This document shows, piece after piece, positions 9,507 to 64,000 of a stretch of DNA of 64,000 nt (the stretch's first letter is position 1; each line of letters starts with the position of its first letter). A program made the position numbers and the translations under genes. The stretch is from a virus: positions 216,236 to 280,235 of IMG/VR virus record IMGVR_UViG_3300028029_000006. One strand, 5' to 3'. Below the pieces are notes generated by a model. The model ran no database searches. It saw only the letters and a list, made by a program, of their open reading frames with translations, and was not told where the DNA came from.

Positions 9507-9941
9507 ATGAAAAAATGTTGTACTTGCCAAACAGAAAGGAATAAAAAGGATTTTAATAAGAATAAGGCAAAATCAGATGGCCTTAATAGTATTTGTCGAG
9601 CATGTTCGCAAGCGAGAAGTAGGCTCTATTATAGAGAGAATCGCAAGAAACACCTAGCAGTTGTCACAAGAAAAAATAAAAAACGAAGAAAAGAAGTGCA
9701 CCAATTTATCGTTGAGTATTTACAGTTGCACCCATGTGTTGATTGTGGCGAAGGTAATCCGGTGGTTCTTGAATTCGATCATATTAAAGGAGATAAAAAG
9801 GATGCTGTATCGTCTCTCATACAAAGACGATGCAGCATTAATACAATTAAATCTGAAATAGATAAATGCGAAATAAGGTGTGCCAATTGTCATCGAAAGA
9901 AAACAGCTGTTGATTTCAATTGGTATAAACTGGGTTCATAG
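9507..9941 (+). CDS. HNH endonuclease (free-standing, tRNA-associated)
   Basis: N-terminal CxxC..CxxC; CVDCG...LEFDH...CEIRCANCHRKKT. The stop codon lies inside tRNA-Lys. Confidence 0.88.
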   Translation: MKKCCTCQTERNKKDFNKNKAKSDGLNSICRACSQARSRLYYRENRKKHLAVVTRKNKKRRKEVHQFIVEYLQLHPCVDCGEGNPVVLEFDHIKGDKKDAVSSLIQRRCSINTIKSEIDKCEIRCANCHRKKTAVDFNWYKLGS

Positions 9942-19693: not shown

Positions 19694-20233
19694 ATGAGTA
19701 ATTTAAAAAAAGAAATAATTGATATCTCTATTAAATATGATTATGAATTAGATTTAGAGTTCACTGAAGATAATGTTTTAACAGCTAAATCCAAAAAAGA
19801 GTTCGGGGATAAACTTACAAAAGTAAGTACCACTCAAAGATTCTCAGAAAAATTTATTAGAGAATTTAAAAATGAAGTATATTGGTTTTGGGTATCTTGT
19901 AACAGTGATTTATCAGAAACATTTATTAGAGAATTTAAAGGTGAAGTAGATTGGCAATGTATATCTCAATATCAAACATTATCTGAAACATTTATTAGAG
20001 AATTTAAAGATAAAGTAGATTGGTATTGTATATCTGATGGCCAAACATTATCAGAAGAGTTTATTGAAGAGTTTCAAAATGATTTAGATTGGAACGGCAT
20101 TATTATGAATCAAGCTTTAAGCATTTCTTTTATTAAAAAATTATCTAATAAAATTAATTTAATCAATTTAGCTATGAATAACGAAAAGTTTACAGAGCAT
20201 TTAGTGAAGTTATTTTTAACATCTAAGGATTAA
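19694..20233 (+). CDS. Trp-repeat protein (22-aa repeat)
   Basis: LSETFIREFKDKVDW-type repeats. Confidence 0.88.
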   Translation: MSNLKKEIIDISIKYDYELDLEFTEDNVLTAKSKKEFGDKLTKVSTTQRFSEKFIREFKNEVYWFWVSCNSDLSETFIREFKGEVDWQCISQYQTLSETFIREFKDKVDWYCISDGQTLSEEFIEEFQNDLDWNGIIMNQALSISFIKKLSNKINLINLAMNNEKFTEHLVKLFLTSKD

Positions 20234-24277: not shown

Positions 24278-25642
24278 ATGAAGAGTGTAATGGAAATAAA
24301 CTGTTTTGGCAATAAATATTGGAAATTACCAAACGGAGATTTACATAGAGACAATGATTTACCAGCTGTTGAATGGGCAGATGGAGCTAAAGAATGGTGG
24401 TTAAATGGAGATCTTCATAGAGGTAATGACTTACCAGCTATTGAATATAAAAATGGAGAAAAGTATTGGTATGTAAATGGGAAACTACATAGAACTGATG
24501 GCTCAGCATTTGAAAATGCAAGTGGTCATAAATTATGGTATCTTGAAAATGTCAGGTATTCTGAAGAAGAGTTTAATGAAAAAGTTAAAATGATTTCTAC
24601 ATATTCAACAAGTGGAAGTGGAGTGGAACATTGGAGATTACCAAATGGTTCTCTTCATAGAGAGAATAATTTACCAGCAAAAGAATACACAGATGGAACT
24701 CAAAAATGGTTTTTTAATGGTAAACTTCATAGAACAAATGGTCCAGCTATTGAGTGGGCAAATGGAGATAAATATTGGTATCTTGAAGGTATTCGTTACT
24801 CTAAAGAAGAGTACAACGAGAAGGTTAAAACGATTTCTACATGTAAAATATATGAAAATGGAGATAAACGTTGGAGATTACCAAATGGTAAACTTCATAG
24901 AGAAAATGATTTGCCAGCTGCTGAATGGTTAAATGGAAGTAAATTTTGGTATGTAAATGGTTTAAATCATAGAACAAATGGTCCAGCAGTTGAATATGCA
25001 GGTGGAGATAAATACTGGTGGCTTGAAGGTGTAAGGTATTCTGAAGAAGAGTATAATAATATTAATAAAACCAAAAACGAAAACGAAAATGATATGAAAG
25101 AAAATGAAATGGACGAACAACCAGAAAAGAAATATGAAGAAGGTGGCAGCACATCAAAACTTGACAAAGTCAAAAGTGCCGGAAGCAAAATCGGAAGCTC
25201 AATCAAGCATGGTTTTGCAGTTGGTGCAGCAACCGAAGGGGCAAATTTGGCATTCAATTTTTTCTTTGAGAAGCTTGGCCTTCCAAAAGAATTCTTAAAT
25301 GATCCAATTAAGAAAGAAATTCTTATGGGGTTGTCAGTGGCCGCTCTTTATGTAGGGTCTTCTGTTTATGAAGAACAGGTTCCTGGCATGAAAAGATTGC
25401 AAAACGGTTGTGAGTTGGTTATCGAAGGTAAAAGCAAAGATAACTTCACAGCGCTAACTTCACATGTTCTTCCAATGTTGATGCAAGCAAGTGAATTAAT
25501 GAAACCGAATTCTCTTATTAATTCATTAACTAAGCAAGAGAAGCTAAGAGTTGAAAATGTTAACGCAATTTCATCTGGTGAATTAATTAATGAAGAGGAA
25601 GGAGATTATGAACAAGCAAACAGTATTACCAGATCATCATGA
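24278..25642 (+). CDS. Beta-hairpin repeat protein fused to the conserved KHG-AxGAATEGAN C-terminal module
   Basis: Three tandem repeat blocks, then the module shared with 26539 and 48221. Confidence 0.9.
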   Translation: MKSVMEINCFGNKYWKLPNGDLHRDNDLPAVEWADGAKEWWLNGDLHRGNDLPAIEYKNGEKYWYVNGKLHRTDGSAFENASGHKLWYLENVRYSEEEFNEKVKMISTYSTSGSGVEHWRLPNGSLHRENNLPAKEYTDGTQKWFFNGKLHRTNGPAIEWANGDKYWYLEGIRYSKEEYNEKVKTISTCKIYENGDKRWRLPNGKLHRENDLPAAEWLNGSKFWYVNGLNHRTNGPAVEYAGGDKYWWLEGVRYSEEEYNNINKTKNENENDMKENEMDEQPEKKYEEGGSTSKLDKVKSAGSKIGSSIKHGFAVGAATEGANLAFNFFFEKLGLPKEFLNDPIKKEILMGLSVAALYVGSSVYEEQVPGMKRLQNGCELVIEGKSKDNFTALTSHVLPMLMQASELMKPNSLINSLTKQEKLRVENVNAISSGELINEEEGDYEQANSITRSS

Positions 25643-26538: not shown

Positions 26539-28512
26539 ATGAGTAAAAAACCTGTAATTCCTGATAGAATCAAACTTCAATACGCAAAAGATATTATTCA
26601 ATTAGAAGATGAACGGGTTGCAGATATTATGTTAAATTTAACAATGAAAGAATCTCTTAAAGAAGAAATAGATGGAATCATTTGTGATAATTTAAATTTT
26701 AATCCTCTTGATTATGATGAAGATGAAGTTTTGATCATAACTAATAATCTTATCCAAGAGATAAAAAGCAAATTATCTTGGGTTTATGTTTCTACTCATA
26801 AAACATTATCTGAAGATTTTATTAGAGAATTTCAAGATGAAGTGAGTTGGGGTTGTATTTCTAGCTCTCAAGATTTATCTGAAGATTTTATTAAAGAATT
26901 TCAAGATAAAGTAGATTGGAAATTTATATTTTGGTGTCAAAAGTTATCAGAAGATTTCATAAGAGAGTTTAAAGATAAAGTATATTGGAATGGTTTATCT
27001 TTGAATCAAAAGTTATCAGAAGATTTTATTAGAGAATTTCAAGATAAAGTAGATTGGATATTTATATCTTATTATCAGAAATTATCAGAAGATTTTATTA
27101 GAGAGTTTAAAGATAAAGTAGATTGGGAATGTATATCTTCTCATCAAACATTATCAGAAGATTTTATTAGAGAATTTCAAGATAAAGTAGACTGGTATGA
27201 AATATCTCAATATCAAAATTTATCAGAAGATTTTATTAGAGAATTTCAAGATAAAGTAGACTGGTTAGAGATTTCATCAGAGCAAAAATTATCTAACAAA
27301 TTTCTTTTTGAATTTGTTAACGAAATTGATTGGAATCAAATTTCTGAAAAACAAAAAAATGATTTTTCCAATCATCTTAATGAAGATGATTGGCAGGGTT
27401 TACTTTGTTATAAAGTCTTGTCTGAAGATTTCAAAGAAGAGTTCAAACACAAACTTAAACCAAATGAAAAAGAATCAATGAAAAAGTCCTTAAAGGAAGA
27501 GATTAAAGATATTGCTTTGTTATATGATGACATTGCAATTGAGTTTGATGTAAATGGAGATGTTATTATATCAGAAGAGTTTTTGGCTAATTTTAGAGAT
27601 GAGGTAAATTGGAATTATATATCTTGGCATAAAAAACTATCAGAAGATTTTATTAGAGAATTTAAAGATAAAGTAATTTGGATTGATATATCTTATAATC
27701 AAAAATTATCTGAAGATTTTATTAGAGAATTTCAAGATAAAGTGAGTTGGGGTTGTATTTCTAGCTCTCAAGATTTATCTGAAGATTTTATTAGAGAATT
27801 TCAAGATAAAGTAAATTGGGGTTGTATTTCTAGCTATCAAGATTTATCTGAAGATTTTATTAGAGAATTTCAAGATAAAGTAAATTGGACTAATATATCT
27901 TTGAATCAAAAGTTATCAGAAGATTTAAAAGAAAAGTTCAAACACAAGCTAACACAAAAGAAAGAAAAAACAATGAACGAAGAAAAATCACAAATGGATT
28001 TGGTAAAACAATCTGGAAAAAAAATCACTAATTCAATCAAACATGGCGTTGCAATTGGAGCAGCAACCGAAGGAGCTAACTACGCATTCAATCTAATAGC
28101 AAAGCAACTTGGGCTATCAGAAGAAGTATTGAACAATCCAGTTCAACGAGAACTTCTTATGGGATTGGCTGTTGCCGCACTTCATGTAGGCTCAACTGTA
28201 TTTGAAGATCAAATTCCTGGTATGGATAAGGTACAATCTGGATGTGAATTAGTTATCCAAGGTAAAAGCAAAGATAACTTCTCCGCAATTGCTCAACAAT
28301 TTATTCCTATTCTTATGAATGCTGCTCAAATGATGGATCCACAAGTAGCTATGGAAAATATGATGAAGGACGCAAACAAAGTTCGAATTGCTCAAGATAA
28401 AGATAAATTGAGAGTTGAATCTAAATTGGTTAATTCTTCTGATGAGGATATTGAAGTTGAGATTGAAAATGAAACAAAGAAAAAGCAAGAGCTAAAAATG
28501 GTAGCTAAATAA
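26539..28512 (+). CDS. Trp-repeat protein fused to the conserved C-terminal module
   Basis: Two blocks of 66-bp repeats, then SIKHGVAIGAATEGAN...GCELVIQGKSKDNF. Confidence 0.92.
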   Translation: MSKKPVIPDRIKLQYAKDIIQLEDERVADIMLNLTMKESLKEEIDGIICDNLNFNPLDYDEDEVLIITNNLIQEIKSKLSWVYVSTHKTLSEDFIREFQDEVSWGCISSSQDLSEDFIKEFQDKVDWKFIFWCQKLSEDFIREFKDKVYWNGLSLNQKLSEDFIREFQDKVDWIFISYYQKLSEDFIREFKDKVDWECISSHQTLSEDFIREFQDKVDWYEISQYQNLSEDFIREFQDKVDWLEISSEQKLSNKFLFEFVNEIDWNQISEKQKNDFSNHLNEDDWQGLLCYKVLSEDFKEEFKHKLKPNEKESMKKSLKEEIKDIALLYDDIAIEFDVNGDVIISEEFLANFRDEVNWNYISWHKKLSEDFIREFKDKVIWIDISYNQKLSEDFIREFQDKVSWGCISSSQDLSEDFIREFQDKVNWGCISSYQDLSEDFIREFQDKVNWTNISLNQKLSEDLKEKFKHKLTQKKEKTMNEEKSQMDLVKQSGKKITNSIKHGVAIGAATEGANYAFNLIAKQLGLSEEVLNNPVQRELLMGLAVAALHVGSTVFEDQIPGMDKVQSGCELVIQGKSKDNFSAIAQQFIPILMNAAQMMDPQVAMENMMKDANKVRIAQDKDKLRVESKLVNSSDEDIEVEIENETKKKQELKMVAK

Positions 28513-28540: not shown

Positions 28541-28613
28541 ACCTCGGTAGCATAAAGGATAATGTAGCTGACTTCTAATCAGTTAAATGAGGGTTCGAGT
28601 CCTTCCCGAGGTG
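28541..28613 (+). tRNA. tRNA-Arg(UCU), second copy
   Basis: ACCTCGG/CCGAGGT acceptor; GCTGA-CTTCTAA-TCAGT; T-arm GAGGG-TTCGAGT-CCTTC. Confidence 0.9.
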
Positions 28614-29387
28614 CTAGTTAATATGATTAAATTAAAAAAGGAATGTTTAAGTTTTTAGAAAGACTTAAAGATAAATCTAAACCAATCACTTATAAAAATG
28701 ATGAAGAATATTATTTATCAGATTACTTAATCAGTTGTAATTTAATTAAAGATCATTCTGGTTATTGTTTCTTAACACCAGAAGGTGAAGAATTTTTGAA
28801 AAAAGGATGTCATAAAGATATTATGGATATTGAAGCAAACTTAAAAGAGCAACTAGAAATTGCAGACCGTCTTAATAATGATGTGCATTTTAATGATGAC
28901 GGGAAACGTTTAGCAGAATTAGTTGAAGCAATGAATGAATGAATGGTTTTTAATTGGAGGATTCCGTCCTCAAGGATGGAAAAATGATCGATAAGTTTAT
29001 GAATGGTTCATTTACAATTATTATGATTGTAACGATTGAAGCTTTTATCTCCGTATGTTAGGAACGTTATGAATATTGGAACTGGTTTATGTTTGTTCTT
29101 TATTTTTCTTTTAAGTATATTCTGTATTGTATTGAAATATAAAATTGATATTCTTAGAATAGACATTAATTACGCAAATAAAAAAGCAAACAATGCTATG
29201 GATTCTTTATCTAAAAAAAGAGAAATAGATTTAGAATATATTAAATCTATTGATGATTTAAATCAACACAGATTTAATAAAGCCATACAATTTATTGAAG
29301 AAGAAGTTTTAGGTAGGCGAGACAAGAATAAAAATATTAACACTGATATTGAAACTGATATTAAAAAATTAAACTAAAAAAATAAAA

Positions 29388-30252: not shown

Positions 30253-30873
30253 ATGAATGAAGAAATAACTGATGCAGTAGTTCTTGTTAAGTGTGACCTT
30301 GTGCCTTCTAAAAAATGTTTAGAACAAAACAAAGACATTATTGATAAAATCAAATCAAGAGTATTCGCTCGTGACTCTGGTTATAGTGATGAGTGGAGAG
30401 AAGCTGTTGGACATGTAGATCGCTTAGAGAGATTGGGAAAACAAAAAATCAATCTTGAAAATGCTTTAAAACAAAATAAAGTTGATTTAAAGAAATTAAA
30501 AAATAAAAAGGCTCAAACAAAAGAAGAAGTTCTTAAGTTATGTAGAGATAAACCTCGCGAAGTCTATAAATGTTATGAAGAGGACGATAAAAAATACTGC
30601 ATGGTAAATGGGAAATATCATAGCAAAAACGATCTGCCGGCAATTGAATATGCCAATGGAGAAAAGTATTGGTTCTGGTATGGTGAGCTGCATAGGGAAA
30701 ATGGTCCCGCCTGGATCAGTTCAAATGGAAATAAAAAATGGTATGCAAATGGGAAACTTCATAGATTAGATGGACCAGCATTTGAATTAGCCAATGGAAA
30801 AAAATATTGGTTTATCGAAGGCAAAAAGTATACTGAAGAAGAGTTTAAACAACAAATAACAAAAGGAGTTTAG
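30253..30873 (+). CDS. Coiled-coil N-terminus fused to beta-hairpin repeats
   Basis: C-terminal NDLPAIEYANGEKYW... repeats. Confidence 0.85.
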   Translation: MNEEITDAVVLVKCDLVPSKKCLEQNKDIIDKIKSRVFARDSGYSDEWREAVGHVDRLERLGKQKINLENALKQNKVDLKKLKNKKAQTKEEVLKLCRDKPREVYKCYEEDDKKYCMVNGKYHSKNDLPAIEYANGEKYWFWYGELHRENGPAWISSNGNKKWYANGKLHRLDGPAFELANGKKYWFIEGKKYTEEEFKQQITKGV

Positions 30874-31381: not shown

Positions 31382-31849
31382 ATGATTGAGTATAAAGTAG
31401 AAGTTGATGATAACAATGCTATTTGGCGTTTAGATGGTAAATTGCATAGAGAAGGAGATTTGCCAGCAATTGAATATGAAAATGGAGATAATATTTGGTA
31501 TGTAAATGGGAAACTTCATAGAGAAAATGATAAGCCTGCTATTGAGTCTACAAATGGTTATAAACAATGGTATGTAAATGGGAAACATCATAGAACAAAT
31601 GGTGCAGCTATTGAATGGTCAGATGGATCCAAAGAATGGTATCTTGAAGGTGTGAACTATTCTGAAGAAGAATTTAATGAAGAAATTATTAGACTAGGCA
31701 TTGCTATTACAGTTAAAATATCAACTGAAATCAAAAGCAAAACCAATAACGAACACAAAAGTTTTTATCAATTAAGACTTAAAGAAAGCTTAGAAAAATC
31801 TAAGCAAGAAGAAAACAATCGTCCTTCAGGTCCTTACGAATTTCTTTGA
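31382..31849 (+). CDS. Beta-hairpin repeat protein with unique tail
   Basis: Body near-identical to that of 39033. Confidence 0.88.
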   Translation: MIEYKVEVDDNNAIWRLDGKLHREGDLPAIEYENGDNIWYVNGKLHRENDKPAIESTNGYKQWYVNGKHHRTNGAAIEWSDGSKEWYLEGVNYSEEEFNEEIIRLGIAITVKISTEIKSKTNNEHKSFYQLRLKESLEKSKQEENNRPSGPYEFL

Positions 31850-34427: not shown

Positions 34428-34498
34428 GTATCAATAGATTAATGGTAAATCAATTCATTCTAAACGAATTATTGCAAGTTCGATTCTTGCTTGATACA
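34428..34498 (+). tRNA. tRNA with CUA anticodon (amber-suppressor-type)
   Basis: GTATCAA/TTGATAC acceptor; GATT/AATC D-stem; ATTCA-TTCTAAA-CGAAT (one A-C mismatch); T-arm GCAAG-TTCGATT-CTTGC. CTA at 34460-34462. Confidence 0.75.
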
Positions 34499-35584
34499 CA
34501 ACGGAGAATAAAATGGCTAAAAGAAAAAAGAAACGTAAAAAGAGAATCAAAGTAAGGAATTCTTTTTTTAGTGTAATGATGAGACGTTATCCTAGAAAAC
34601 AGATAATGAAAAATAGAAACAAGAAACGTTCTGATAATAAAAAGAATCATTGGATGAAAGATTGGGAATGATTTATAGAACACAATATAAACCCGCAGTT
34701 AATAAAAACAAATCTTTAAAAGTAAAGCTTCATAAGTTATGGTGCCACAAATTAAATATTGGTAAATGGCGTGGTGAAGTTGAAGGTTGGATTGATGAAG
34801 GTATTGTAATGGCTGGTTATCGATGTCATAAATGTGATGAGCTTGAAGGTATTCATGAAGCTCATAGAAGATGGCCAAGACCTGGCAGTTTAGGCTCTTG
34901 GTATTCTAAGTGTGTTAGTACTAATTGGGGAAGGAGTTTAGGAATTGACTAATTATTTAATTTTTATATGGAGTACTTTTTGTGGTATAGGTTTATTTGG
35001 TGCAATCTATATTGCTTATGAAGCTACTACATATTAATACAAATGTAGTATATGAAGGTTGTTTAATTAGCCATGGGATAGGAGATCATAGCGATGGTGC
35101 ATGTGATGCTTTGTGTTATGGAACTGCTAATTACAGTGGAATCATTTGTAAGTGTAAAAAACAGATGAGCGGCAATTGTACAGAAGAAATGTTGAATGAA
35201 AGTAAAAAGTAAATGGAACGTAACTGTACTGAAATTAGATCTGTAGCAGGTGAAAGTAAATATGCAGAATTCGATCCAGAGTTTGGATTCTGGGGTGTGT
35301 TCGGTGAGGACTCGGGGTTCTGTTTTGGTCAGTTTAACACAGAAGAAGAAGCAGAAGCTCATTGCTAGCAATTAAAAAGAAAGAAAATAATTATACGTGG
35401 ATTAAAAAGTGAAGACCTTGTTGGGAAAACTATTAAAAAAATTAATGTTGACTGCGTCAATGTTGTTACGTTAACATTTGAAGACGATTCCAAATTGGAA
35501 GTTTACGCAGAAGTAACTCGTTTACCTAATTGTGTTGGGGAATTTGGAATCATTGTAACACCTGAATAATAAGAAAGATAAAAT

Positions 35585-36205
35585 ATGATTGAATATAATG
35601 TTGACTCGAAACTAATCTCAACTAGAGATGCAGACACTTTAACTTGCTTATTGACTCTCCCAAGAGTTATTACAGTTAATAAGTTTGATGAAGACTCAGC
35701 CAGAGATTTTCGTAATGATTTTGCTGAGGCTCTTAACACGAAACAAGATGTTGTACCAATCGTAATTGATTCTTATGGAGAACAAGTTCATTCTCTTTTC
35801 AGTATGATTGATACAATTAATACATCACCAGTTCCTGTTGCGACAATTGTAACTGGAAAAGCGATGAGTTGTGGGGCTGTGTTAATGACTTGTGGAACTG
35901 ATGGTATGCGTTTTGTTAGTAAACATTCTACTGTAATGATTCATGATGTTTCTGCCGGAACTTGGGGTAAAGTGGAAGATATGAAGCTTTCAGTTAAAGA
36001 GTTTGCTCGTCTTGGTAAGTTGTTGATTGGAATGATCGAGAAGAATATTGGTAAGTCTCCAGGTTATATTAATGATATTTTGGAGAAGAAAAATAGAGGA
36101 GACTGGTATCTAACTCCAAAGCAATGTGTAAAACATAACTTGGCCAACAAAGTTGGGATGCCTAAGTTGACAGTTTCGATTAAGACTGAGATGTCTTTTG
36201 TTTAA
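35585..36205 (+). CDS. clpP: ClpP-family protease subunit
   Basis: IDSYG, GKAMSCG (Ser), VMIHD (His) and DWYL (Asp). Confidence 0.88.
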   Translation: MIEYNVDSKLISTRDADTLTCLLTLPRVITVNKFDEDSARDFRNDFAEALNTKQDVVPIVIDSYGEQVHSLFSMIDTINTSPVPVATIVTGKAMSCGAVLMTCGTDGMRFVSKHSTVMIHDVSAGTWGKVEDMKLSVKEFARLGKLLIGMIEKNIGKSPGYINDILEKKNRGDWYLTPKQCVKHNLANKVGMPKLTVSIKTEMSFV

Positions 36206-38745: not shown

Positions 38746-39036
38746 ATGAAAATTTGGTTGGATGATGTTAGAGAAGAACCAGAAGGTTGGGTTAGATGTT
38801 ACTGGCCTGAAGAGGTAATTGCTTTATTGAAAACCAATGAGGTAGAGATTATCAGTTTGGATCATGATTTAGGAGATGATGATCATGGTACTGGCTATGA
38901 TGTTCTTCTTTGGATTGAGAAGCAAGTGGTATTAAATAATTTTAATTATCCTGAAATGATAATTCATTCTGCGAATATTTCTGCTAGACATAAAATGAAT
39001 CTGGCAATATTCTTTATTGAAACGAGAAAAATATGA
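38746..39036 (+). CDS. Cyclic-phosphate-processing receiver-domain protein
   Basis: KIWLDDVR...ISLDHDLG...TGYDV...IHSAN. Confidence 0.82.
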   Translation: MKIWLDDVREEPEGWVRCYWPEEVIALLKTNEVEIISLDHDLGDDDHGTGYDVLLWIEKQVVLNNFNYPEMIIHSANISARHKMNLAIFFIETRKI

Positions 39037-39416
39037 TTGAATATACAGTAAAAGTTGATGATAACAATGCTATTTGGCGTTTAGATGGTAAATTGCATAG
39101 AGAAGGAGATTTGCCAGCAATTGAATATGAAAATGGAGATAAATGCTGGTATGTAAATGGGAAACTTCATAGAGAAAATGATAAGCCTGCTATTGAGTCT
39201 ACAAATGGTTATAAACAATGGTATGTAAATGGGAAACATCATAGAACAAATGGTGCAGCTATTGAATGGTCAGATGGATCCAAAGAATGGTATCTTGAAG
39301 GTGTTCAGTATTCTGAAAAAGAGTTTAATGAAAAAATGAATCCTGAACAAGAATCTTGTAATGGTAAGATGGTTGAAGTTAATGGTAAGAAATATAAATT
39401 AATTGAATTAGAATAA
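39033..39416 (+). CDS. Beta-hairpin repeat protein (mosaic)
   Basis: Chimera of 53024-, 31382- and 31053-like segments. Confidence 0.9.
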   Translation: MIEYTVKVDDNNAIWRLDGKLHREGDLPAIEYENGDKCWYVNGKLHRENDKPAIESTNGYKQWYVNGKHHRTNGAAIEWSDGSKEWYLEGVQYSEKEFNEKMNPEQESCNGKMVEVNGKKYKLIELE

Positions 39417-39738: not shown

Positions 39739-40104
39739 ATGATTGAGTATAAAGTAGAAGTTTATGATAATGAAACTGTTTGGCGTTTAGATGGTAAATT
39801 GCATAGAGAAGGAGATTTGCCAGCTGTTGAGAGGTCAGAGGGTCATAAAGAGTGGTGGCTGAATGGTAAACTTCATAGAGAGAATAATAAACCTGCTAAA
39901 ATACTTTCAAATGGCTCCAAATTGTGGTTTGTAAATGGGAGGCTTCATAGAACAAATGGGGCAGCTATTGAGTGGGACAGATGGGGTAGAGAATGGTTTA
40001 TTGATGGGTTCACTTTTTGTGAACACACATACCTTACAGGTCTTAAACATTTTAATAAAAATTTAAAAACCAAACAAGAATCTTGCAATAACAATTGTAG
40101 TTGA
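39739..40104 (+). CDS. Beta-hairpin repeat protein
   Basis: Repeats; the tail appears truncated after QESCN. Confidence 0.85.
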   Translation: MIEYKVEVYDNETVWRLDGKLHREGDLPAVERSEGHKEWWLNGKLHRENNKPAKILSNGSKLWFVNGRLHRTNGAAIEWDRWGREWFIDGFTFCEHTYLTGLKHFNKNLKTKQESCNNNCS

Positions 40105-48222: not shown

Positions 48223-50440
48223 GATTTGTTTATTTATTATGATTGATTTAATTAAAAAGATTGCTAAAGACCATGATTGCATAGTTCGTTTTGAAAACGG
48301 CAAATTAACTGATTACTCTAGAAAAGAATTTGTATCTAAGATAAATTGGTTGAATGTAGCTTGTAATAAAGAAATATTAACTGAAGAGTTCATTAAAGAA
48401 TTTCAAAACAAAATAAGTTGGTGGGCAGTATCCTCTTATCAAGTCTTATCAGAAGATTTTATTAGAGAATTTCAAGATAAAGTAGATTGGGATATCATAT
48501 CTTTTTCTCAAGACTTATCAGAATCCTTTATTGTAGAATTTAAATATGAATTAGATTGGGAATGTATATCTCAATTTCAAAAACTATCTGAAGATTTCAT
48601 TATAAATTTTGCCAACAAAATATATTGGAAAAAGTTAGGTGAAAATTATAATATCTCTGAAGAATGTAAAAGAAAATTCAAAAAAGCTATCAGACTTGCT
48701 ATCAATCAGGAGAAGCGCATGAAAAATTCTTTAATAGAAGAAATAGTTACCATTGCTAATGAGATAAATGTGGGTATATTTTTCGATTCTAATAATAAAA
48801 TTGAAAGTGATTCATTGAGTACATTTATCAATCATTTAGATTGGCAAAAAACGTGTGAAGAAAAAGTTTTATCTGAAGATTTTATTAGAGAATTTCAAAA
48901 TGAATTAGATTGGGATGCCGTATCTTCTTCTCAAAAATTATCTGAAAGTTTCTTTGAAGAATTCAAAGATAAAATGAATTGGGAGTATATATCTAGATCC
49001 CAGAAATTATCAGAAGGATTTATAAAAAAATTTAAAGATAAGCTAAATTGGACTATAATTAATAGCAACCAAATATTATCTGAGAATTTCATAAGAGAGT
49101 TTCAGGATGAAGTTAATTGGTCCACTATATCTAGTTATCAAAAACTATCAGAAGAATTCATTAAAGAATTTAAAAATAAAGTAAATTGGGTTAATATATC
49201 TTTTAAACAAAAATTATCTGAGGATTTTATGAGAGAATTTCAAGATGAAATTGATTTTACTATGCTACATAGTATAATTTCAGATGATTTTCATCAAGAA
49301 ATGACTAATAAAATTAGTCAAGTTGATAGCAAACCTGAAGGTAAATCTATGGATGAAGAAATGATATTATCAAATAATATAGAAGCAGTTCGTAAAAAAT
49401 ATGGGCCTGAAGTTTTGCTTTTAATAAAAGAATCAATTGAAGATTTACCAGAGTGTGATACTTCAGCAGAATACAAAGAAGAATATCTGTTAATTTATGA
49501 TACAATTGATACTTTAGCAAAAAAATCTACGATCTCATATAAAGAATCAAAAGAAGTTTTTAGTTTATTAAATAAACTAAATAATGATCCCAATTCAAAT
49601 TGGATGGTAACACTTCAAGATTTTGAAGATTGGGAAAATTCAAAATCTAAACCAACTGTAGAGGATTCTTCACAAGGAGCTGAAGAAGAAGAAGAATTAG
49701 TAGGACCAGTTGTAAAAGAGAGCCGTGTTAAATACGGCGAATTTATTTTTAAAAAACCAATAATCTTAAAGGAACTTAAGCAGCATTCTGATTCCTTACA
49801 GACTGAAAAAGAAGTTGAAGCTGAAGCTGAACCAGTTGCAGAAAAGAATTTCGATACTAGAAACATTAAAGGTTGGGTGGATATGACTAAGCCATTTTGT
49901 AATCCTGAATGGCTTAATACCACAAAACCAATGACAAATAATGAACACAAAATACACTTAGCGAAAAAATCTGGAAACATAATTAAAGACTGCGTCAAAC
50001 ATGGAGTAGCAATTGGAGCTGCTACAGAAGGCGCTAACTATGTTTTCAAGTTACTTTCAAAACAATTGAACCTCTCAGAAGAAGCTCTTAACAACCCAGT
50101 TAAACGAGAACTACTTATGGGACTAACAGTTGCCGCACTTCATATGGGATCAACAATCTTTAAAGATAAAATTCCCAATATGGATAAGGTACAAACCGGT
50201 TGTGAATTAGTTATCCAAGGTAAAAGCAAAGATAACTTCTCCGCAATGGTTCAACATTTAGTCCCTGTTCTTACAAACGCGGTTCAAATGATGGATCCCA
50301 AGTCTGCCTTTGAGAAAATGTTTAAAGAGCAAGAGAAATTAAGAATTGCAAATCTTAAAGATATGCAACTAACTAATGAAGCAGAAGAGATTGAAGTTTA
50401 TGATGAATACAATAATCGTCTTTTAGAAAGAAACGCATAA
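48221..50440 (+). CDS. Trp-repeat protein fused to the conserved C-terminal module
   Basis: Two repeat blocks, an acidic linker, then VKHGVAIGAATEGAN...GCELVIQGKSKDNF. True start probably 48239. Confidence 0.92.
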   Translation: MICLFIMIDLIKKIAKDHDCIVRFENGKLTDYSRKEFVSKINWLNVACNKEILTEEFIKEFQNKISWWAVSSYQVLSEDFIREFQDKVDWDIISFSQDLSESFIVEFKYELDWECISQFQKLSEDFIINFANKIYWKKLGENYNISEECKRKFKKAIRLAINQEKRMKNSLIEEIVTIANEINVGIFFDSNNKIESDSLSTFINHLDWQKTCEEKVLSEDFIREFQNELDWDAVSSSQKLSESFFEEFKDKMNWEYISRSQKLSEGFIKKFKDKLNWTIINSNQILSENFIREFQDEVNWSTISSYQKLSEEFIKEFKNKVNWVNISFKQKLSEDFMREFQDEIDFTMLHSIISDDFHQEMTNKISQVDSKPEGKSMDEEMILSNNIEAVRKKYGPEVLLLIKESIEDLPECDTSAEYKEEYLLIYDTIDTLAKKSTISYKESKEVFSLLNKLNNDPNSNWMVTLQDFEDWENSKSKPTVEDSSQGAEEEEELVGPVVKESRVKYGEFIFKKPIILKELKQHSDSLQTEKEVEAEAEPVAEKNFDTRNIKGWVDMTKPFCNPEWLNTTKPMTNNEHKIHLAKKSGNIIKDCVKHGVAIGAATEGANYVFKLLSKQLNLSEEALNNPVKRELLMGLTVAALHMGSTIFKDKIPNMDKVQTGCELVIQGKSKDNFSAMVQHLVPVLTNAVQMMDPKSAFEKMFKEQEKLRIANLKDMQLTNEAEEIEVYDEYNNRLLERNA

Positions 50441-53708: not shown

Positions 53709-54179
53709 ATGAAGAACTTAAACAAAGTAATTTCCATATTAAAAAAATATAACTTTAAGCATGAGCCAAAAGTTAATGGTTTTAGTCAAGATGAGAATGT
53801 AGATCCGGCAGTATCATCTAAAGATATTGCAAAATTAAAAGAGCTTAACTATTTCTATGCAAACTTCGGAGAAATTAATTGGGAGTGTGATGGTTTGTCA
53901 GGCTTTGTTTGGAGAGATCCTGATGATCATATGAATGATAAAGATTGTTATAGATTGAATTTAGACATCCGTACATATATGAAACAAAATAGTAATCGTT
54001 TTATTGAAACTCTTGATAAAGATAGATTATTTCATATAGAGGTTTCTCAACCTGGAATTGATGCTGCTTGTCATGTTGATGGGCATGATTATTATCATAC
54101 AATGCTTGTACAAGCTGTCAGTGATTATATCTTTATGCATGTAGAGGATATCCCCACAAGCACATTTAAAAAAAGATGA
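53709..54179 (+). CDS. Hypothetical protein
   Basis: N-terminus resembles 21666..21917; 100 bp of it is duplicated at 55194. Confidence 0.8.
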   Translation: MKNLNKVISILKKYNFKHEPKVNGFSQDENVDPAVSSKDIAKLKELNYFYANFGEINWECDGLSGFVWRDPDDHMNDKDCYRLNLDIRTYMKQNSNRFIETLDKDRLFHIEVSQPGIDAACHVDGHDYYHTMLVQAVSDYIFMHVEDIPTSTFKKR

Positions 54180-54892
54180 ATAAACTAATCAAAGAGATAG
54201 TTTCTGAATATAATTGTTTAAAACTTAAGTTTACTAAAAAAGGTAAATTAAAAAAGAAATCACGAAAAGAATTTATAAACAAAGTACATTGGGGTTATAC
54301 TTCTAGAGATTATACATTATCCGAAGATTTTATAAGAGAATTTCAAAATGAAGTTATCTGGTATTATATATCAAAAGACCAAATTTTATCCGAACCTTTC
54401 ATTAAAGAATTTAAAGATAAAGTACATTGGTGGTTAATACCTGCTGATCAAGTCTTAACTCAAGATTTTATTAGAGAGTTTTGGAATAAAACAGATTGGA
54501 AATGGATATCATCAAACCAAATTTTATCAGAAGATTTTATTGAAGAATTTAAAGATGAAGTATGGTGGCAGAGAATATCTCAATATCAGATATTATCTGA
54601 AAATTTCATTAGAAAATTTAAAACTGAAGTGATATGGAATTATATATCTCAATATCAAACCTTATCAGAAGGTTTCATTAGAGAATTTAAACATAAGGTA
54701 GCATGGAGTTTTATATCTCGTTATCAAAAATTATCAGTAGAGTTTATTAGAGAGTTTCAAAAAGAATTATATTTAGATTTAATTCTCATTTATCAAGACT
54801 TGTCTATTGAACATATTGAAGAACTTCAAATTAAGTCAAAGGAATTACATGAAATTAATTATCGCAACAAACGAAGGCGAAATAGTTGGTGA
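54176..54892 (+). CDS. Trp-repeat protein
   Basis: About seven 22-aa repeats. Confidence 0.9.
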   Translation: MNKLIKEIVSEYNCLKLKFTKKGKLKKKSRKEFINKVHWGYTSRDYTLSEDFIREFQNEVIWYYISKDQILSEPFIKEFKDKVHWWLIPADQVLTQDFIREFWNKTDWKWISSNQILSEDFIEEFKDEVWWQRISQYQILSENFIRKFKTEVIWNYISQYQTLSEGFIREFKHKVAWSFISRYQKLSVEFIREFQKELYLDLILIYQDLSIEHIEELQIKSKELHEINYRNKRRRNSW

Positions 54893-60440: not shown

Positions 60441-60821
60441 ATGAAAAAATCAATAGAAATCATTGCGAAATTTTATAATTGTTCAGAAATGAAATTTAAT
60501 TAAGATAACAAGTTAGATATGGACTCTAAAAAAGAATTTATATCTAAAATAGATTGGGAATATATATCAAGAAAACAAAAATTATCTGAAGATTTTATAA
60601 GAGAATTTGAAGATAAAGTATGTTGGGTTAATATTTCTTGGTTTCAGAATTTATCTGAAGCGTTTATTCGAGAGTTTAAAGATGAAGTAGATTGGGATGG
60701 TATATCTGAGCATCAAAAATTATCTGAGAATTTTATTGAAGAATTTAAAGAAGAAGTAACTTGGTTTGGTTTATCTGAACATCAGGATCTGTCTGAAGAA
60801 TTCATATTAAGGATGATATAA
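60441..60821 (+). pseudogene. Trp-repeat gene with in-frame TAA at 60501
   Basis: YNCSEMKFN*DNKL aligns with YNCSEMEFDLNGKL of 62653. Confidence 0.75.
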
Positions 60822-61411
60822 TGCAAGAATTAATTAGAAGAATATATAAACAATATAATTGTTTCATAGAGTTTAATTCAAATGGTAAATTAACTAAAGA
60901 ATCTAGAAAAAATTTTGAGAGTGAAGTAGATTTTAATTGGATTATTAGAAACATGACTCTATCAGAAGAATTCTTAATAGAATTTAAAGATAATTTTCAT
61001 TGGCCTGATGTGTTTTCTAATAAAAAATATTCAGAAAAACTCATTAAGTATATTTATACATCTATATCTTTTAATCATTTACATGAAGATTTTAAAAAAT
61101 TTAAAGAAAAAAGATTTTGGGAAACAGTTTCTTATCATCAAAATTTATCTGAAGATTTCATTAGAGAATTTCAAGATAAATTAAGTTGGGGTGACATATC
61201 TTCTGGCCAAATCTTATCTGAGGGATTTATTATAGAGTTTCAAGATAAAGTAGATTGGGATATAATATCTTTGAATCAAAAATTATCAGAAGATTTTATT
61301 AGAGAATTCAAAGATAAAGTGAATTGGGGTTGCATATCAGATCGTCAAATGTTATCTAAAGATTTCATTAGGGAGTTTCAGGACAAAGTAGATCGGACTT
61401 TATTATTATAA
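60821..61411 (+). CDS. Trp-repeat protein
   Basis: LSEDFIREFQDK repeats. Confidence 0.88.
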   Translation: MQELIRRIYKQYNCFIEFNSNGKLTKESRKNFESEVDFNWIIRNMTLSEEFLIEFKDNFHWPDVFSNKKYSEKLIKYIYTSISFNHLHEDFKKFKEKRFWETVSYHQNLSEDFIREFQDKLSWGDISSGQILSEGFIIEFQDKVDWDIISLNQKLSEDFIREFKDKVNWGCISDRQMLSKDFIREFQDKVDRTLLL

Positions 61412-62063
61412 GAATGATATAAGGAATAAATAGATGAATGAATATAAACTTAAAACTTGTACAATTTGTAGTGAAAACTTTAAATCCTTAACAAATATAT
61501 TGGATAAGTATAATTTTGATGATCCTATATGTTCTGATGAATGTTCAAGAATAGCTCAAGGAAAAACTTGGCCAAAAGAAGAGGATTGTCCAGGTTGTCC
61601 AAACAATATTAATTTGGATCATAAGTTAAGTTGTTCATATCGAGGTGGTTATATGAAAATTCCCATGATTCTAAAAAAAGAATAAATTAATAGTTATATT
61701 AAAAACAATGCGTAAACATCATTCTCAATACGGAATAACGTCACGTGTACTTGGACGTGAGTACATGAAGGTAGTTGATTATTTTAGCAACCTTAAGATG
61801 ATTGCCAAGTCATATCCATTTCGCAAAGTTCCATCTCATTTAAGAGAGATTTCAAAAGAATTAGCAATGGAACTTGCAGAAAAGAATCAGTAAATTGAAA
61901 TGTATATTAATAACATTATTGTTAATTGGTTGTCATGTACCACCAAAACCAGGACCAAATTGTTTATCTAAATGCGAACTAGATAATTCTAACTGCATAG
62001 AAGATGGTAGGAAGAAATGTTTGTGTTGTATTAACCATAGAGACTGTGTTAGGCATTGTACTG

Positions 62064-62669
62064 ATGAGAAAATTAATTGAAGATATTGCTTCCGAACACA
62101 ATTGTTCACCCCTTAAATTCTACTCAGGTAGATTAACTAAAAAATCAAAAACCATTTTTGAAAATGAAGTTGAGTGGTTTTATGTTATAAAACGTCAAAG
62201 AAATTATATATCAGATGAATTTATAAGAACATTTCAAGATAAAGTAAGTTGGTTTATGATCTCTCAATGGAGATCTTTATCAAAAGAGTTTATTATAGAA
62301 TTTAAAGATAAATTAGTGTGGAGTACATATTGTTATTGTAACCTACCATCAGAGGATTTTATTAGAGAATTTGAAGATGAAATATCTTGGAAAACCATAT
62401 CTAGTAGATCAATCTTATCTGAGGAATTCATAAGAGAATTTCAAGATAAAGTAGATTGGATAAATATATCTTGGTTTCAAGATTTATCTGAAGAGTTTAT
62501 TAGAGAGTTTCAGGATAAAGTAAATTGGTATGAAGTATCTAGATATCAAAAGTTATCACATTCTTTTGCAGTAGAATTTAAAGAAAAAATTGATTTTTCC
62601 ATTCTATTTAGAAGAGAGTATTTTTTAGAAATACTTATAGAAAAATATAATAATGAAGAAATTAAATGA
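62064..62669 (+). CDS. Trp-repeat protein
   Basis: Start MRKLIEDIA matches the family N-cap. Confidence 0.88.
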   Translation: MRKLIEDIASEHNCSPLKFYSGRLTKKSKTIFENEVEWFYVIKRQRNYISDEFIRTFQDKVSWFMISQWRSLSKEFIIEFKDKLVWSTYCYCNLPSEDFIREFEDEISWKTISSRSILSEEFIREFQDKVDWINISWFQDLSEEFIREFQDKVNWYEVSRYQKLSHSFAVEFKEKIDFSILFRREYFLEILIEKYNNEEIK

Positions 62670-63324
62670 ATTAATTGAAGATGTTGCTGCCAAATATAAC
62701 TGTTCAGAGATGGAATTTGATTTAAATGGTAAGTTAACTAAAGAATCAAGACAAGAATTTGAAGATAAAGTAAAATGGAATGCGTGTTGGCAGATTGATC
62801 TTTCAGAAGATTTCATTAGAGAGTTTCAAGATAAATTAACTTGGTATAAAATATCTCAATGGATAGATTTATCAGAAGAATTTATAAAAGATTACCAACA
62901 TGAGGTAAACTGGGATGATGTTTCTGAATATCAAGTACTATCTGAAAATTTTATTAGAGAATTCCAAGATAAAGTAAACTGGGATAATATTTCTAATAAT
63001 CAAGACTTATCAATTTCCTTCTTAGAAGAATTTTTTGATAAGATCACATATGTAAATGTACGTCAATATGAAAACTTATCAGAAAACTTCTTTAGAAGAT
63101 TTAAAGATAAGTTTTGTTGGTCTGATATATCTTACAGACTATTATCAGAAGATTTTATTAGAGAGTTTAAAGATGAATTAGATTGGGATGATATATCTTT
63201 TTATCAAAATCTATCTGAGAATTTTATTATTGAATTTAATAATCGTATCAATTTCAAATTGTTATTTAATAACAATAAACATTTTAAAGAATTCCTATTA
63301 AATAAGTATAAATATAATGAATAA
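62653..63324 (+). CDS. Trp-repeat protein
   Basis: About seven repeats. Confidence 0.9.
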   Translation: MKKLNELIEDVAAKYNCSEMEFDLNGKLTKESRQEFEDKVKWNACWQIDLSEDFIREFQDKLTWYKISQWIDLSEEFIKDYQHEVNWDDVSEYQVLSENFIREFQDKVNWDNISNNQDLSISFLEEFFDKITYVNVRQYENLSENFFRRFKDKFCWSDISYRLLSEDFIREFKDELDWDDISFYQNLSENFIIEFNNRINFKLLFNNNKHFKEFLLNKYKYNE

Positions 63325-63557
63325 ATTAATTAAAGAAATAGCTTCTTACCAAACAAGGTAAGTTATATAAAAAATCAAGAAAAGAATTTGAATATTATGT
63401 AGACTGGATAGGTATATCTATATACAAAAACTTATCAGAAGATTTTATTAGAGAATTCAGTAATAAAGTAGATTGGAATTGGATATCTTATAATCAAAAA
63501 TTATCAGAAGAATTTATTAGTACATTCAAACATAGATTAAATGTTAGTAACATTTAG
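63317..63557 (+). pseudogene. Frameshifted short Trp-repeat gene
   Basis: MNKLIKEIASY, then GKLYKKSRKEF...LSEDFIREF in another frame. Confidence 0.7.
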
Positions 63558-63568
63558 GAATAAATATA

Positions 63569-64000
63569 ATGAATAAACAGCTAGAAGATTTTTATCTTAA
63601 CAATGGAACAGATGATAAAGAACGAACGCTTGAATTCATCTTAGCCCAAGATGATGAATGGTGGGAGTTTACTCATGATTTTATTCAATGGGTTTTTCCT
63701 ACTGCTACCAAAAGCGGATTCAATCCAAATGCCCCTTTATTGATTAAGGATTCAGTGATGTCTTATCAGCCAAATAATTTAAATGATAATTATAATTTTG
63801 AAAGATCCTGTCTTAGATTTGTAAGATTCTTAGAATTAGATTCCGATAAACCTTGGTGGGTAGATAATGCTCCACATAACTATCTTCGTATCACAAGATT
63901 TCTTGAATCTATTAAAATAGTATTATTAAGACAAATAGCATATGGAGATTTGTACACCCCAGATATGATTAAAGTAATATCTCCGCAATTAAAACGAATT
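63569..64000 (+). CDS. OGFr (opioid growth factor receptor)-like domain protein, 3' truncated
   Basis: EFTHDFIQWVFP...SGFNPNAPLL...HNYLRITRFLESI. Confidence 0.82.
   Translation, partial: MNKQLEDFYLNNGTDDKERTLEFILAQDDEWWEFTHDFIQWVFPTATKSGFNPNAPLLIKDSVMSYQPNNLNDNYNFERSCLRFVRFLELDSDKPWWVDNAPHNYLRITRFLESIKIVLLRQIAYGDLYTPDMIKVISPQLKRI

What the first reader, a model, noticed from the sequence alone, without database searches (positions are those of the whole stretch)
26539..27960. Trp repeats have a fixed scaffold with two hypervariable dipeptides
Seen: LSEDFIREFQDKVDW is nearly invariant even in DNA, while W-xx-IS-xx-Q varies (GC/SS, IF/YY, EC/SH, YE/QY, LE/SE, ID/YN, TN/LN). The same holds across nine genes. 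Known: TALE, PPR and ankyrin repeats encode specificity this way. Inference: a programmable helical-repeat binder library; the acidic scaffold favours protein targets or nucleic-acid mimicry.
Basis: partly seen in the sequence, partly recalled or inferred. Interest (0 to 1): 0.72.

Follow-up and report, generated by a model that had tools for sequence, protein, structure and literature searches.

The report
Viral tryptophan-repeat protein with hypervariable face
A giant-phage gene encodes a stack of 23-residue helical repeats whose framework is fixed while four residues on one side of a short helix differ in nearly every repeat. It belongs to a named but uncharacterised repeat family of large DNA viruses and most likely binds proteins.

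Summary
ORF 26539..28512 (657 aa) has 12 clean 23-aa units. Scaffold positions carry 0-0.8 bit of entropy (Gln/Lys position 10: 1.2). Positions 16, 17, 20 and 21 carry 2.3-2.9 bits in the gene and 2.9-3.8 bits over 116 units genome-wide.

The window lies in a 409-kb virus record with 37 such ORFs (251 units, 6.8% of the genome), nine of them in the window.

AlphaFold2 models the arrays at pLDDT 91-98. Each unit is two short helices, and the four variable residues lie in the second. By helical periodicity they face away from the conserved W/I/S/Q side.

The variable residues are not neutral in make-up: Tyr is 19.8%, 5.7 times the genome's share.

167 of 186 units have a different tetrad, so there is no small TALE- or PPR-like code.

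The family is already named. A fold search matches entomopoxvirus "tryptophan repeat gene family" proteins (MSV027: E 8e-16, 46% identity) and phage G gp558-563. No function or solved structure turned up.

Units are exchanged between genes as cassettes.

The most likely role is a diversified protein-binding solenoid, which is an inference. dN/dS between units is saturated and uninformative. Solvent exposure could not be measured because no coordinates were available.

The parts
26539..28512 (+). Whole ORF, 657 aa: N-terminal helices, repeat array 1, linker, repeat array 2, conserved C-terminal domain
26539..26805 (+). aa 1-89: N-terminal helical region ending in a half unit (SWVYVSTHKT). Modelled with low confidence (pLDDT 42-69)
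26806..27357 (+). Array 1: eight 23-aa units (aa 90-273). Helix A covers repeat positions 3-8 and helix B positions 15-21. pLDDT 81-98
27358..27498 (+). aa 274-320: degenerate unit(s) and the C-cap of array 1 (LSEDFKEEFKHKLKP...)
27499..27636 (+). aa 321-366: linker, N-cap of array 2 (short beta hairpin at aa 334-344) and one degenerate unit
27637..27912 (+). Array 2: four 23-aa units (aa 367-458). The domain aa 330-478 folded alone gives pLDDT 94.2 and pTM 0.84
27632..27769 (+). Two-unit cassette, 91% and 99% identical in DNA to two consecutive units of a paralogue about 120 kb away (stop-to-stop ORF at genome offset 121363). The flanking units fall to 49-72%
27913..27993 (+). aa 459-485: C-cap helix of array 2 and linker
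27994..28509 (+). Conserved helical C-terminal domain plus acidic tail. It is shared by 5 ORFs of the genome, one of them a MORN-repeat protein. No family is assigned
24278..25642 (+). Neighbouring MORN-repeat protein carrying the same C-terminal domain (50% identical)
19694..20233 (+). Trp-repeat paralogue, 179 aa
48221..50440 (+). Trp-repeat paralogue, 739 aa, with the same C-terminal domain
54176..54892 (+). Trp-repeat paralogue, 238 aa
60504..61411 (+). Two adjacent Trp-repeat ORFs in different frames: stop-to-stop from 60504, and ATG ORF 60821..61411
62004..64000 (+). Three further Trp-repeat ORFs: 62004..62669, 62653..63324, and 63569..64000, which runs off the window

Best explanation
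The gene is a member of the viral 'tryptophan repeat gene family'. Each 23-residue unit folds into two short helices that stack into an alpha-solenoid. L1, F5, I6, F9, V13, W15, I18, S19 and Q22 build the core. E3, D4, R7, E8, D11 and K12 give a constant, acidic outer side. Positions 16, 17, 20 and 21 of helix B, helped by 14 and 4, form a strip along the other side that differs in nearly every unit.

That strip is most likely a binding surface for proteins of the host or the phage. The constant C-terminal domain would supply a common docking or effector function.

Diversity across the 37 paralogues comes from point substitution restricted to a Tyr/Asn/Ser/Cys/His/Trp/Arg-rich alphabet, and from exchange of whole units between genes by recombination in the near-identical scaffold DNA.

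Shown: the repeat anatomy, the variability pattern, the biased composition, family membership, and one recent two-unit cassette shared between two distant genes, with more shared tetrads than chance.

Inferred: surface exposure, binding, and the nature of the target.
For: Fold:
- AF2 models the arrays at pLDDT 91-98 and array 2 alone at pLDDT 94.2, pTM 0.84. Helix A covers positions 3-8 and helix B positions 15-21.
- On a 100-degree helical wheel, W15/I18/S19/Q22 fall at 0/300/40/340 degrees. Positions 16/20/17/21 fall at 100/140/200/240 degrees.

Composition of the variable positions:
- Tyr is 19.8% (5.7x the genome's share, 2.9x the mutational expectation). Cys is 4.1x, His 2.4x and Trp 2.2x. 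Leu, Val, Ala, Met, Ile and Lys are depleted and Pro is 0 of 464.
- Tyr is 19.2% in 1624 variable residues of 119 metagenomic homologues.

Diversity: 167 distinct tetrads in 186 units.

Fast divergence:
- In four recent paralogues, flanks are 72-92% identical with flank dS 0.11-0.42. Variable positions are only 5-30% identical, and variable dN / flank dS is 2.1-7.7.
- In 4 of 5 independent close metagenomic pairs, variable positions are 25-75% identical against 88-95% for non-repeat parts.

Cassette exchange:
- 16 between-gene identical tetrad pairs, against a null mean of 1.3 (maximum 7 in 1000 shuffles).
- A two-unit tract is 91% and 99% identical to a distant gene.
- Only 20 of 116 units have their nearest unit in the same ORF.

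Fusion partners:
- An Atlas cluster of structural look-alikes carries an F-box in 32% of members (a lead only).
- AMV254 is described as a tryptophan repeat family protein with an F-box (passage of PMC7728225).
- P0108 carries an N-terminal tyrosine-phosphatase domain.
- The same C-terminal domain is fused to Trp repeats, MORN repeats or small beta domains.
Against: - No partner is known and no binding was tested.
- No coordinates could be read, so exposure and the continuity of the variable strip are deduced, not measured.
- Position 21 is Tyr in 37-40% of units. From its wheel angle it may pack laterally rather than bind.
- Between units, variable codons are saturated: pN 0.65 and 87% of residues differ even between units with identical scaffold DNA. 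dN/dS of 1.6-2.4 there is not proof of positive selection.
- In the recent paralogues, scaffold pS (0.39-0.53) exceeds flank pS (0.10-0.32). Arrays and flanks therefore have different histories, and the 2.1-7.7 ratio is not a clean dN/dS.
- One close pair keeps 25 of 26 variable residues.
- No solved structure resembles the fold closely. The best VIA Z is 5.5, and Foldseek PDB finds nothing at E <= 0.001.
Confidence: 0.6

Rival explanations
1. The variable positions are merely unconstrained surface residues of a structural or spacer solenoid. They drift neutrally and the variability has no function.
For: Variable codons are saturated and uncorrelated with scaffold divergence. pN of 0.61-0.65 is near the ceiling. 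No partner is known.
Against: The composition is far from both the genome's usage and the mutational expectation: Tyr 5.7x, Cys 4.1x, Lys 0.56x, Leu 0.31x. The same Tyr share (19.2%) recurs in 119 homologues from other sources. Keeping 37 paralogues, 6.8% of the genome, is hard to explain for a passive spacer.
Confidence: 0.2
2. A one-repeat-one-nucleotide code as in TALE or PPR proteins: the arrays read DNA or RNA sequence through the variable dipeptides.
For: Tandem helical repeats with a few specificity-like positions. A plant mitoribosome chain is among the weak fold matches, Z 5.2.
Against: 186 units carry 167 distinct tetrads, 103 first dipeptides and 83 second dipeptides, far more than a four-letter code needs. 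The arrays are acidic, -1.3 to -2.5 per unit, pI 4.4. The unit is 23 aa, not 34-35. No Pfam TAL or PPR match.
Confidence: 0.04
3. An acidic decoy: the constant negatively charged side mimics nucleic acid and blocks host DNA- or RNA-binding proteins, with the variable side secondary.
For: Net charge -20 over the 184 aa of array 1. E3, E8 and D11 are acidic in 70-98% of units.
Against: The charge density is moderate and partly balanced by R7, K12 and K23. This does not explain a constrained yet hypervariable strip, or 37 different paralogues. No match to anti-defence or defence models. No fold match to known mimics.
Confidence: 0.08
4. Targeted hypermutation by a diversity-generating retroelement writes the variable codons.
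For: Variation is confined to a few codons inside an otherwise conserved DNA repeat.
Against: No reverse transcriptase (PF00078) in the 409-kb record, rated 96% complete, while the control genomes gave hits. Recent duplicates keep their tetrads, e.g. units 90/390 of the target.
Confidence: 0.02

Closest known systems
Tryptophan repeat gene family of entomopoxviruses (MSV027, MSV205, AMV029; AMV254 with F-box), also annotated in Bacillus phages G and vB_BpuM-BpSp; phrog_3532
   Same: The same 23-aa Trp-centred repeat and the same predicted fold. MSV027: E 8e-16, TMq 0.81, rmsd 1.4, 46% identity over 128 columns. AMV029: 43%. Phage G gp563: 54%. phrog_3532: E 3e-146. Multi-copy in each genome: 22-30 tblastn places in phages G, LPJP1 and BpSp; BpSp gp053-058 form a cluster.
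   Different: This genome holds 37 ORFs, some with capped multi-array architecture and a rare C-terminal domain (27 proteins among 1.84 billion representatives). I found no function, solved structure or description of the variable positions in the literature searched.
Ankyrin repeats, DARPins and poxvirus ankyrin/F-box proteins
   Same: Stacked two-helix repeats with a fixed framework and a few variable surface positions, expanded as paralogue families in large DNA viruses, and sometimes fused to an F-box. Weak fold resemblance, Z 4.0-5.0.
   Different: 33-aa unit with a beta-hairpin, against 23 aa with two helices of 6-7 residues. No Pfam ankyrin match. The Z values are at the level of any alpha-solenoid.
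TALE and PPR repeats
   Same: Helical tandem repeats in which a few positions per unit vary on a constant scaffold.
   Different: 34-35 aa units that bind nucleic acid with a small recurring code. Here the units are 23 aa, the arrays are acidic and 167 of 186 tetrads are unique.
Leucine-rich repeat variant (LRV, PDB 1lrv) and PBS-lyase HEAT-like repeats
   Same: Short (about 24 aa) alternating-helix solenoid repeats. Some Atlas look-alike clusters carry LRV_2 or HEAT_PBS on 16-31% of members.
   Different: VIA Z is only 3.9 to 1lrv. No Pfam match for this protein even at E up to 10.

Membership tests
Tryptophan repeat gene family (entomopoxvirus / jumbo phage; phrog_3532) | Tandem units of about 23 aa with an invariant Trp | tested here: met
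   12 units of 23 aa, with W15 in 12/12 of them. Genome-wide W15 is present in 115/116 units.
Tryptophan repeat gene family (entomopoxvirus / jumbo phage; phrog_3532) | Significant similarity to named members | tested here: met
   BFVD fold search: MSV027 at E 8e-16 and 46% identity. Entries of Choristoneura, Mythimna and Adoxophyes entomopoxviruses named 'Tryptophan repeat gene family' score E 6e-15 to 2e-13. tblastn hits a BpSp gene annotated with that name. phrog_3532 scores E 3e-146.
TALE repeats | 33-35 aa unit with a two-residue code drawn from a small recurring set; binds DNA | tested here: not met
   The unit is 23 aa. There are 103 and 83 distinct dipeptides in 186 units. The array is acidic. 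No Pfam match. DNA binding itself was not tested.
PPR repeats | 35-aa helix-turn-helix unit with a two-position RNA code | tested here: not met
   The unit is 23 aa. No Pfam match. The only fold resemblance is a generic Z 5.2 to a plant mitoribosome chain.
Ankyrin repeats | 33-aa unit of two helices plus a beta-hairpin/loop; Pfam Ank profiles | tested here: not met
   The unit is 23 aa with no hairpin inside units. No Pfam match. Whether the folds are distantly related stays open at Z 4-5.
Leucine-rich repeat variant (LRV) | About 24-aa alternating alpha / 3-10 helix solenoid | tested here: inconclusive
   VIA Z 3.9, rmsd 5.2, 133 residues aligned to 1lrv_A. No Pfam LRV match.
Diversity-generating retroelement target | Reverse transcriptase and template repeat in the same genome | tested here: not met
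   PF00078: 0 matches in the 409,147-bp record, while 3 of 14 control genomes gave hits. The record is rated 96% complete, so a small gap remains.

The most novel reading that the evidence does not exclude
The near-identical scaffold DNA is itself functional. It provides about 45-nt homology arms around each variable segment, so that the roughly 250 units of one phage genome recombine as cassettes. The phage would then carry a self-shuffling combinatorial library of small (23-aa-unit) binders mounted on a few constant C-terminal modules. That would be a germline repertoire for host takeover or counter-defence, comparable in logic to lamprey VLR or antigenic-variation cassettes, and shared in scaffold with entomopoxviruses and giant viruses.
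Probability: 0.2. Interest if true: 0.75.

Novelty: new member of a known kind. Interest (0 to 1): 0.45.

Why it matters
The tryptophan repeat family is annotated by name in entomopoxvirus and jumbo-phage records. Matching proteins occur in iridovirus, baculovirus and giant-virus records. About 2000 short metagenomic proteins match one array at E <= 1e-5. Yet no function or structure turned up in the literature I could search.

The family combines a rigid 23-residue scaffold with a Tyr-rich, almost never repeated four-residue strip, and units move between genes. That gives a concrete, testable hypothesis that these are binders, and it names which residues to swap.

It also points to an unusually compact natural repeat scaffold that could serve protein engineering. 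Up to 54% identity between phage arrays and insect-poxvirus proteins raises the question of how the module travelled between virus realms.

Tried and rejected
- dN/dS between repeat units: variable dN/dS is 2.4 in the gene and 1.6 genome-wide. I rejected it as evidence because variable sites are saturated and show no relation to scaffold divergence.
- General codon bias as the whole explanation of DNA-level conservation: rejected, because codon choice is position-specific.
- Stop-codon recoding, prompted by a tRNA with anticodon CTA: long ORFs barely lengthen when TAG is read through. The standard code was kept.
- Pfam, NCBIfam and PADLOC give no family for the repeat or the C-terminal domain. 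The 'RuvC_1' match of homologue P0058 probably lies on the repeats themselves, since array 2 also touches that model weakly. I do not use it as a fusion partner.
- PDB by sequence: only a chance match at E 0.31.
- Foldseek against PDB, with the whole model and with array 2: nothing at E <= 0.001.
- VIA wide search: best Z 5.5, generic solenoids only.
- Close relatives of the C-terminal domain in viral contigs: none.
- Atlas search for the C-terminal domain: scores of 0.76 or lower and TM of 0.41 or lower, so no lead.
- Transmembrane helix in the C-terminal domain: the highest 19-residue Kyte-Doolittle mean is 1.34, so none is predicted.
- Homodimer test of the C-terminal domain with complex prediction: the queue was full and the tool was then declared unavailable. 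Nothing was folded.
- Earlier findings of this scan: nothing returned.
- The entomopoxvirus genome papers PMC103860 and PMC3700194 are not held. What the original definition of the family says is recalled, not read.
- The phage G paper's supplements list the family as 'unknown function' in the two annotation rows shown (of three occurrences). No proteomic information on it was seen.
Full report
**What is there.** The finding lies in ORF 26539..28512 (+ strand, 657 aa).
- Translation shows 12 ungapped 23-residue units, consensus LSEDFIREFQDKVDW-xx-IS-xx-Q-K, starting at aa 90, 113, 136, 159, 182, 205, 228, 251, 367, 390, 413 and 436.
- The 15-mer is exact in 3 of 12 units, has one change in 5 and two changes in 3. 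Unit 251 is degenerate.
- Per-position entropy in the gene is 2.86/2.58/2.28/2.63 bits at positions 16/17/20/21, 1.96 at 14 and 1.55 at 23.
- L1, S2, F5, E8, F9, W15 and Q22 are at 0. The other scaffold positions are at most 0.82, and the Gln/Lys position 10 is at 1.19.
Tandem Repeats Finder independently reports 69-nt arrays at 26793-27264 and 27569-27926, and in eight other places of the window.

**Genome context.** The window is bases 216236-280235 of a single 409,147-bp contig (31.9% G+C).
- The genome tool labels the contig a virus record rated 96% complete.
- A profile built from the units finds 37 stop-to-stop ORFs with two or more units. Together they hold 251 units and take 27.6 kb, 6.8% of the genome. 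Nine of them lie in the window.
- Over 116 ungapped units from 31 ORFs, the entropies at 16/17/20/21 are 3.83/3.60/3.65/2.90 bits. Positions 14 and 4 are at 2.75 and 2.32. L1 and Q22 are invariant.
- 406 units from 119 metagenomic homologues show the same pattern, at 3.92/3.91/3.90/3.01 bits.
- Both sets were picked with a profile of the scaffold. That favours scaffold conservation but cannot create the variability.

**The DNA-level claim.**
- Among unit pairs with the same residue, codons differ in 18% of cases in the gene and 23% genome-wide. The genome's codon usage predicts 40%.
- This is not general codon bias, because codon choice depends on position. Ile6 is ATT in 87 of 109 units but Ile18 is ATA in 81 of 96. 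Ser19 is TCT in 96 of 103 but Ser2 is TCA 56 / TCT 52.
- The scaffold is nevertheless not a marker of recent duplication. Scaffold pS is 0.39. The 50 unit pairs with zero scaffold nucleotide differences still differ at 87% of variable residues, the same as pairs with eight or more differences.
- Nei-Gojobori estimates between units give dN/dS of 0.07 for the scaffold and 2.4 for the variable positions in the gene, and 0.08 and 1.6 genome-wide.
- With pN of 0.61-0.65 the variable sites are saturated, so I do not count this as proof of positive selection.

**Structure.**
- AlphaFold2 with a 96-sequence alignment gives mean pLDDT 75.9 for the whole protein, but 91-98 over both arrays.
- The domain aa 330-478, folded alone with 103 sequences, gives pLDDT 94.2 and pTM 0.84.
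- DSSP on both models shows two short helices per unit. Helix A covers repeat positions 3-8 (EDFIRE) and helix B covers positions 15-21 (WxxISxx).
- Each array has an N-cap and a C-cap helix. Array 2's N-cap includes a small beta hairpin.
- The four hypervariable residues therefore all lie in helix B.
- On a 100-degree helical wheel, the conserved W15, I18, S19 and Q22 fall at 0, 300, 40 and 340 degrees. Positions 16, 20, 17 and 21 fall at 100, 140, 200 and 240 degrees, the opposite side.
- I could not read model coordinates. The claim that these sides line up into one exposed strip along the solenoid is an inference from the two-layer geometry of such repeats, not a measurement.
- By the same reasoning, 17 and 20 should point straight outward while 16 and 21 are lateral. 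That fits the lower entropy and the 37-40% Tyr at position 21.

**Are the variable residues neutral?**
- Their composition says no. Over 464 residues, Tyr is 19.8% against 3.5% in other long ORFs and 6.8% expected from base composition.
- Cys is 4.1-fold enriched, His 2.4-fold and Trp 2.2-fold. Leu (0.31x), Ala (0.28x), Val (0.40x), Met, Ile and Lys are depleted, and Pro is absent.
- The 119 homologues from other sources give Tyr 19.2%.
- From my own knowledge, Tyr, Trp, Arg, Asn and Ser are typical of protein-binding hot spots and antibody paratopes.
- 186 units carry 167 distinct tetrads, 103 distinct first dipeptides and 83 distinct second dipeptides. That is far too many for a nucleotide code of the TALE or PPR kind.
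- The arrays are acidic: -20 over the 184 aa of array 1, pI 4.4, and a mean of -1.26 per unit genome-wide. The charge sits at E3, D4, E8, D11 and D14. This argues against nucleic-acid binding.

**How the diversity arises.**
- Four paralogues outside the window share an N-cap and a C-terminal DUF7666-like domain (Pfam E 3.4e-5, below the curated cut-off). These parts are 72-92% identical, with flank dS of 0.11-0.42.
- Their aligned variable positions are only 5-30% identical, and the semi-variable positions 48-58%, the level of random unit pairs.
- Variable dN over flank dS is 2.1-7.7. But scaffold pS within the arrays (0.39-0.53) exceeds flank pS (0.10-0.32), so arrays and flanks have different histories.
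- Unit numbers also differ between these genes.
- Direct signs of exchange exist. Identical tetrads occur in 16 between-gene and 5 within-gene unit pairs out of 17,205. Column shuffles give 1.3 and 0.04 on average, with a maximum of 7 in 1000 shuffles.
- Only 20 of 116 units have their most similar unit in the same ORF.
- Two consecutive units of the target (27632-27769) are 91% and 99% identical in DNA to two consecutive units of a gene about 120 kb away. The neighbouring units fall to 49-72%.
- Among close metagenomic pairs, which probably represent five independent lineages, four show variable positions at 71%, 75%, 40% and 25% identity. Their non-repeat parts are at 94%, 88%, 95% and 91%. 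One pair keeps 25 of 26 variable residues.
- No reverse transcriptase is present, so a diversity-generating retroelement is unlikely.

**Modularity.**
- The last 172 residues (27994-28509) form a domain shared at 50-66% identity by five ORFs of the genome: three other Trp-repeat proteins and the neighbouring MORN-repeat protein 24278..25642.
- A profile of it finds only 27 proteins among 1.84 billion representatives. In the 13 sequences I read, the domain is always at the C-terminus. It follows Trp repeats, MORN repeats or other regions that match no Pfam family (some Lys/Val/Gly-rich), or stands nearly alone.
- It has no Pfam, NCBIfam or PADLOC match and no predicted transmembrane helix.
- Elsewhere the repeat array is joined to DUF7666 and to a tyrosine phosphatase (P0108).
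- According to an Atlas cluster (32% of members) and a passage of PMC7728225 on AMV254, it is also joined to F-box domains.
- Variable repeat arrays on constant or enzymatic modules is the layout of adaptor proteins.

**Comparison with what is known.**
- The family is not new. phrog_3532 matches at E 3e-146.
- tblastn finds 22-30 places each in Bacillus phage G, Listeria phage LPJP1 and Bacillus phage vB_BpuM-BpSp. In BpSp, gp053-058 are annotated 'putative tryptophan repeat gene family protein'.
- A fold search of array 2 against predicted viral structures gives the following:
  - MSV027 of Melanoplus sanguinipes entomopoxvirus: E 8e-16, TMq 0.81, rmsd 1.4, 46% identity.
  - Entries of three other entomopoxviruses named 'Tryptophan repeat gene family'.
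  - AMV029.
  - Phage G gp558-563.
  - More weakly: proteins of Orpheovirus, Pithovirus, Marseillevirus, a baculovirus and a chloriridovirus.
- The phage G paper calls the family 'of unknown function' (passages and supplement rows of PMC12484599).
- Searches of the held library found no functional or structural study and no description of the variable positions. The searches covered the family name alone, the name with 'jumbo phage', 'entomopoxvirus' and 'virus', and six peptide strings of the repeat. The passages of the jumbo-phage review PMC7824862 returned for my terms did not mention the family ('tryptophan' occurs 0 times).
- The original entomopoxvirus genome papers are not held.
- No solved structure is close. 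The best VIA Z is 5.5, to a designed repeat protein. Ankyrin/DARPin, HEAT-like and PPR-like chains score Z 4-5, and the 24-aa LRV repeat (1lrv) scores Z 3.9. Foldseek finds nothing at E <= 0.001.

**Verdict.**
- The interpretation as a library of helical-repeat binders is the best-supported reading (about 0.6). 'Programmable' in the TALE/PPR sense is not supported, and the family was already named.
- New here are the mapping of variability onto one side of helix B, the biased Tyr-rich alphabet, and the evidence for cassette exchange between paralogues.
- Open questions are the actual exposure of the variable residues, any binding partner, the role of the C-terminal domain and the host.

Noticed in passing
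window 34428-34499 (+): ARAGORN calls a tRNA with anticodon CTA, which would read TAG (labelled tRNA-Pyl). TAG ends only 28 of 317 long ORFs in the genome. Reading TAG through barely lengthens the long ORFs, so recoding looks unlikely.
   Followed up: partly
window 28541-28614 and 50485-50560 (+): Two tRNA-Arg genes (TCT, CCT) each lie 29-45 nt downstream of a Trp-repeat gene that carries the shared C-terminal domain. The genome has 21 tRNA genes in all, 8 of them in the window.
   Followed up: no
window 24278-25642, 30253-30873, 31382-31849, 39033-39416, 39739-40104 and elsewhere: A second expanded repeat family (MORN-like, YxxGxxHRxxGPA): 16 ORFs genome-wide by a simple pattern. One ORF outside the window carries both MORN-like and Trp units.
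   Followed up: partly
window 27994-28509; paralogues at 25157-25639 and 49949-50437; L001:2872-3336; L002:403-894: A rare C-terminal helical domain with an acidic tail: 27 proteins among 1.84 billion representatives. In the sequences read it is always C-terminal, behind different N-terminal modules. No family or fold could be assigned.
   Followed up: partly
outside the window: L003, L004, L005 (genome 200379-201221, 209917-211113, 181314-182651): Four Trp-repeat genes end in a DUF7666-like domain that is 85-92% identical between most of them. The same fusion dominates the short metagenomic homologues.
   Followed up: partly
window 9507-9941, 35585-36205, 56169-56561: An HNH endonuclease (phrog_2255, E 8e-32), a head-maturation/ClpP-like protease (phrog_94, E 2e-20) and a transposase fragment (phrog_506, E 2e-36). 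40 of the 47 other ORFs scanned have no PHROG match.
   Followed up: no
array 2 of the target versus entomopoxvirus proteins: 43-54% sequence identity over about 128 aligned columns between a phage repeat array and proteins of insect poxviruses. Weaker matches occur in amoebal giant viruses, a baculovirus and an iridovirus. The module has crossed between virus realms.
   Followed up: partly
window 60504-60818 / 60821-61411; genome offsets 46410/46740, 324231/324441, 168869/169399: Several Trp-repeat ORFs lie directly head to tail in different frames. They may be separate small genes or the remains of frameshifted longer ones.
   Followed up: no
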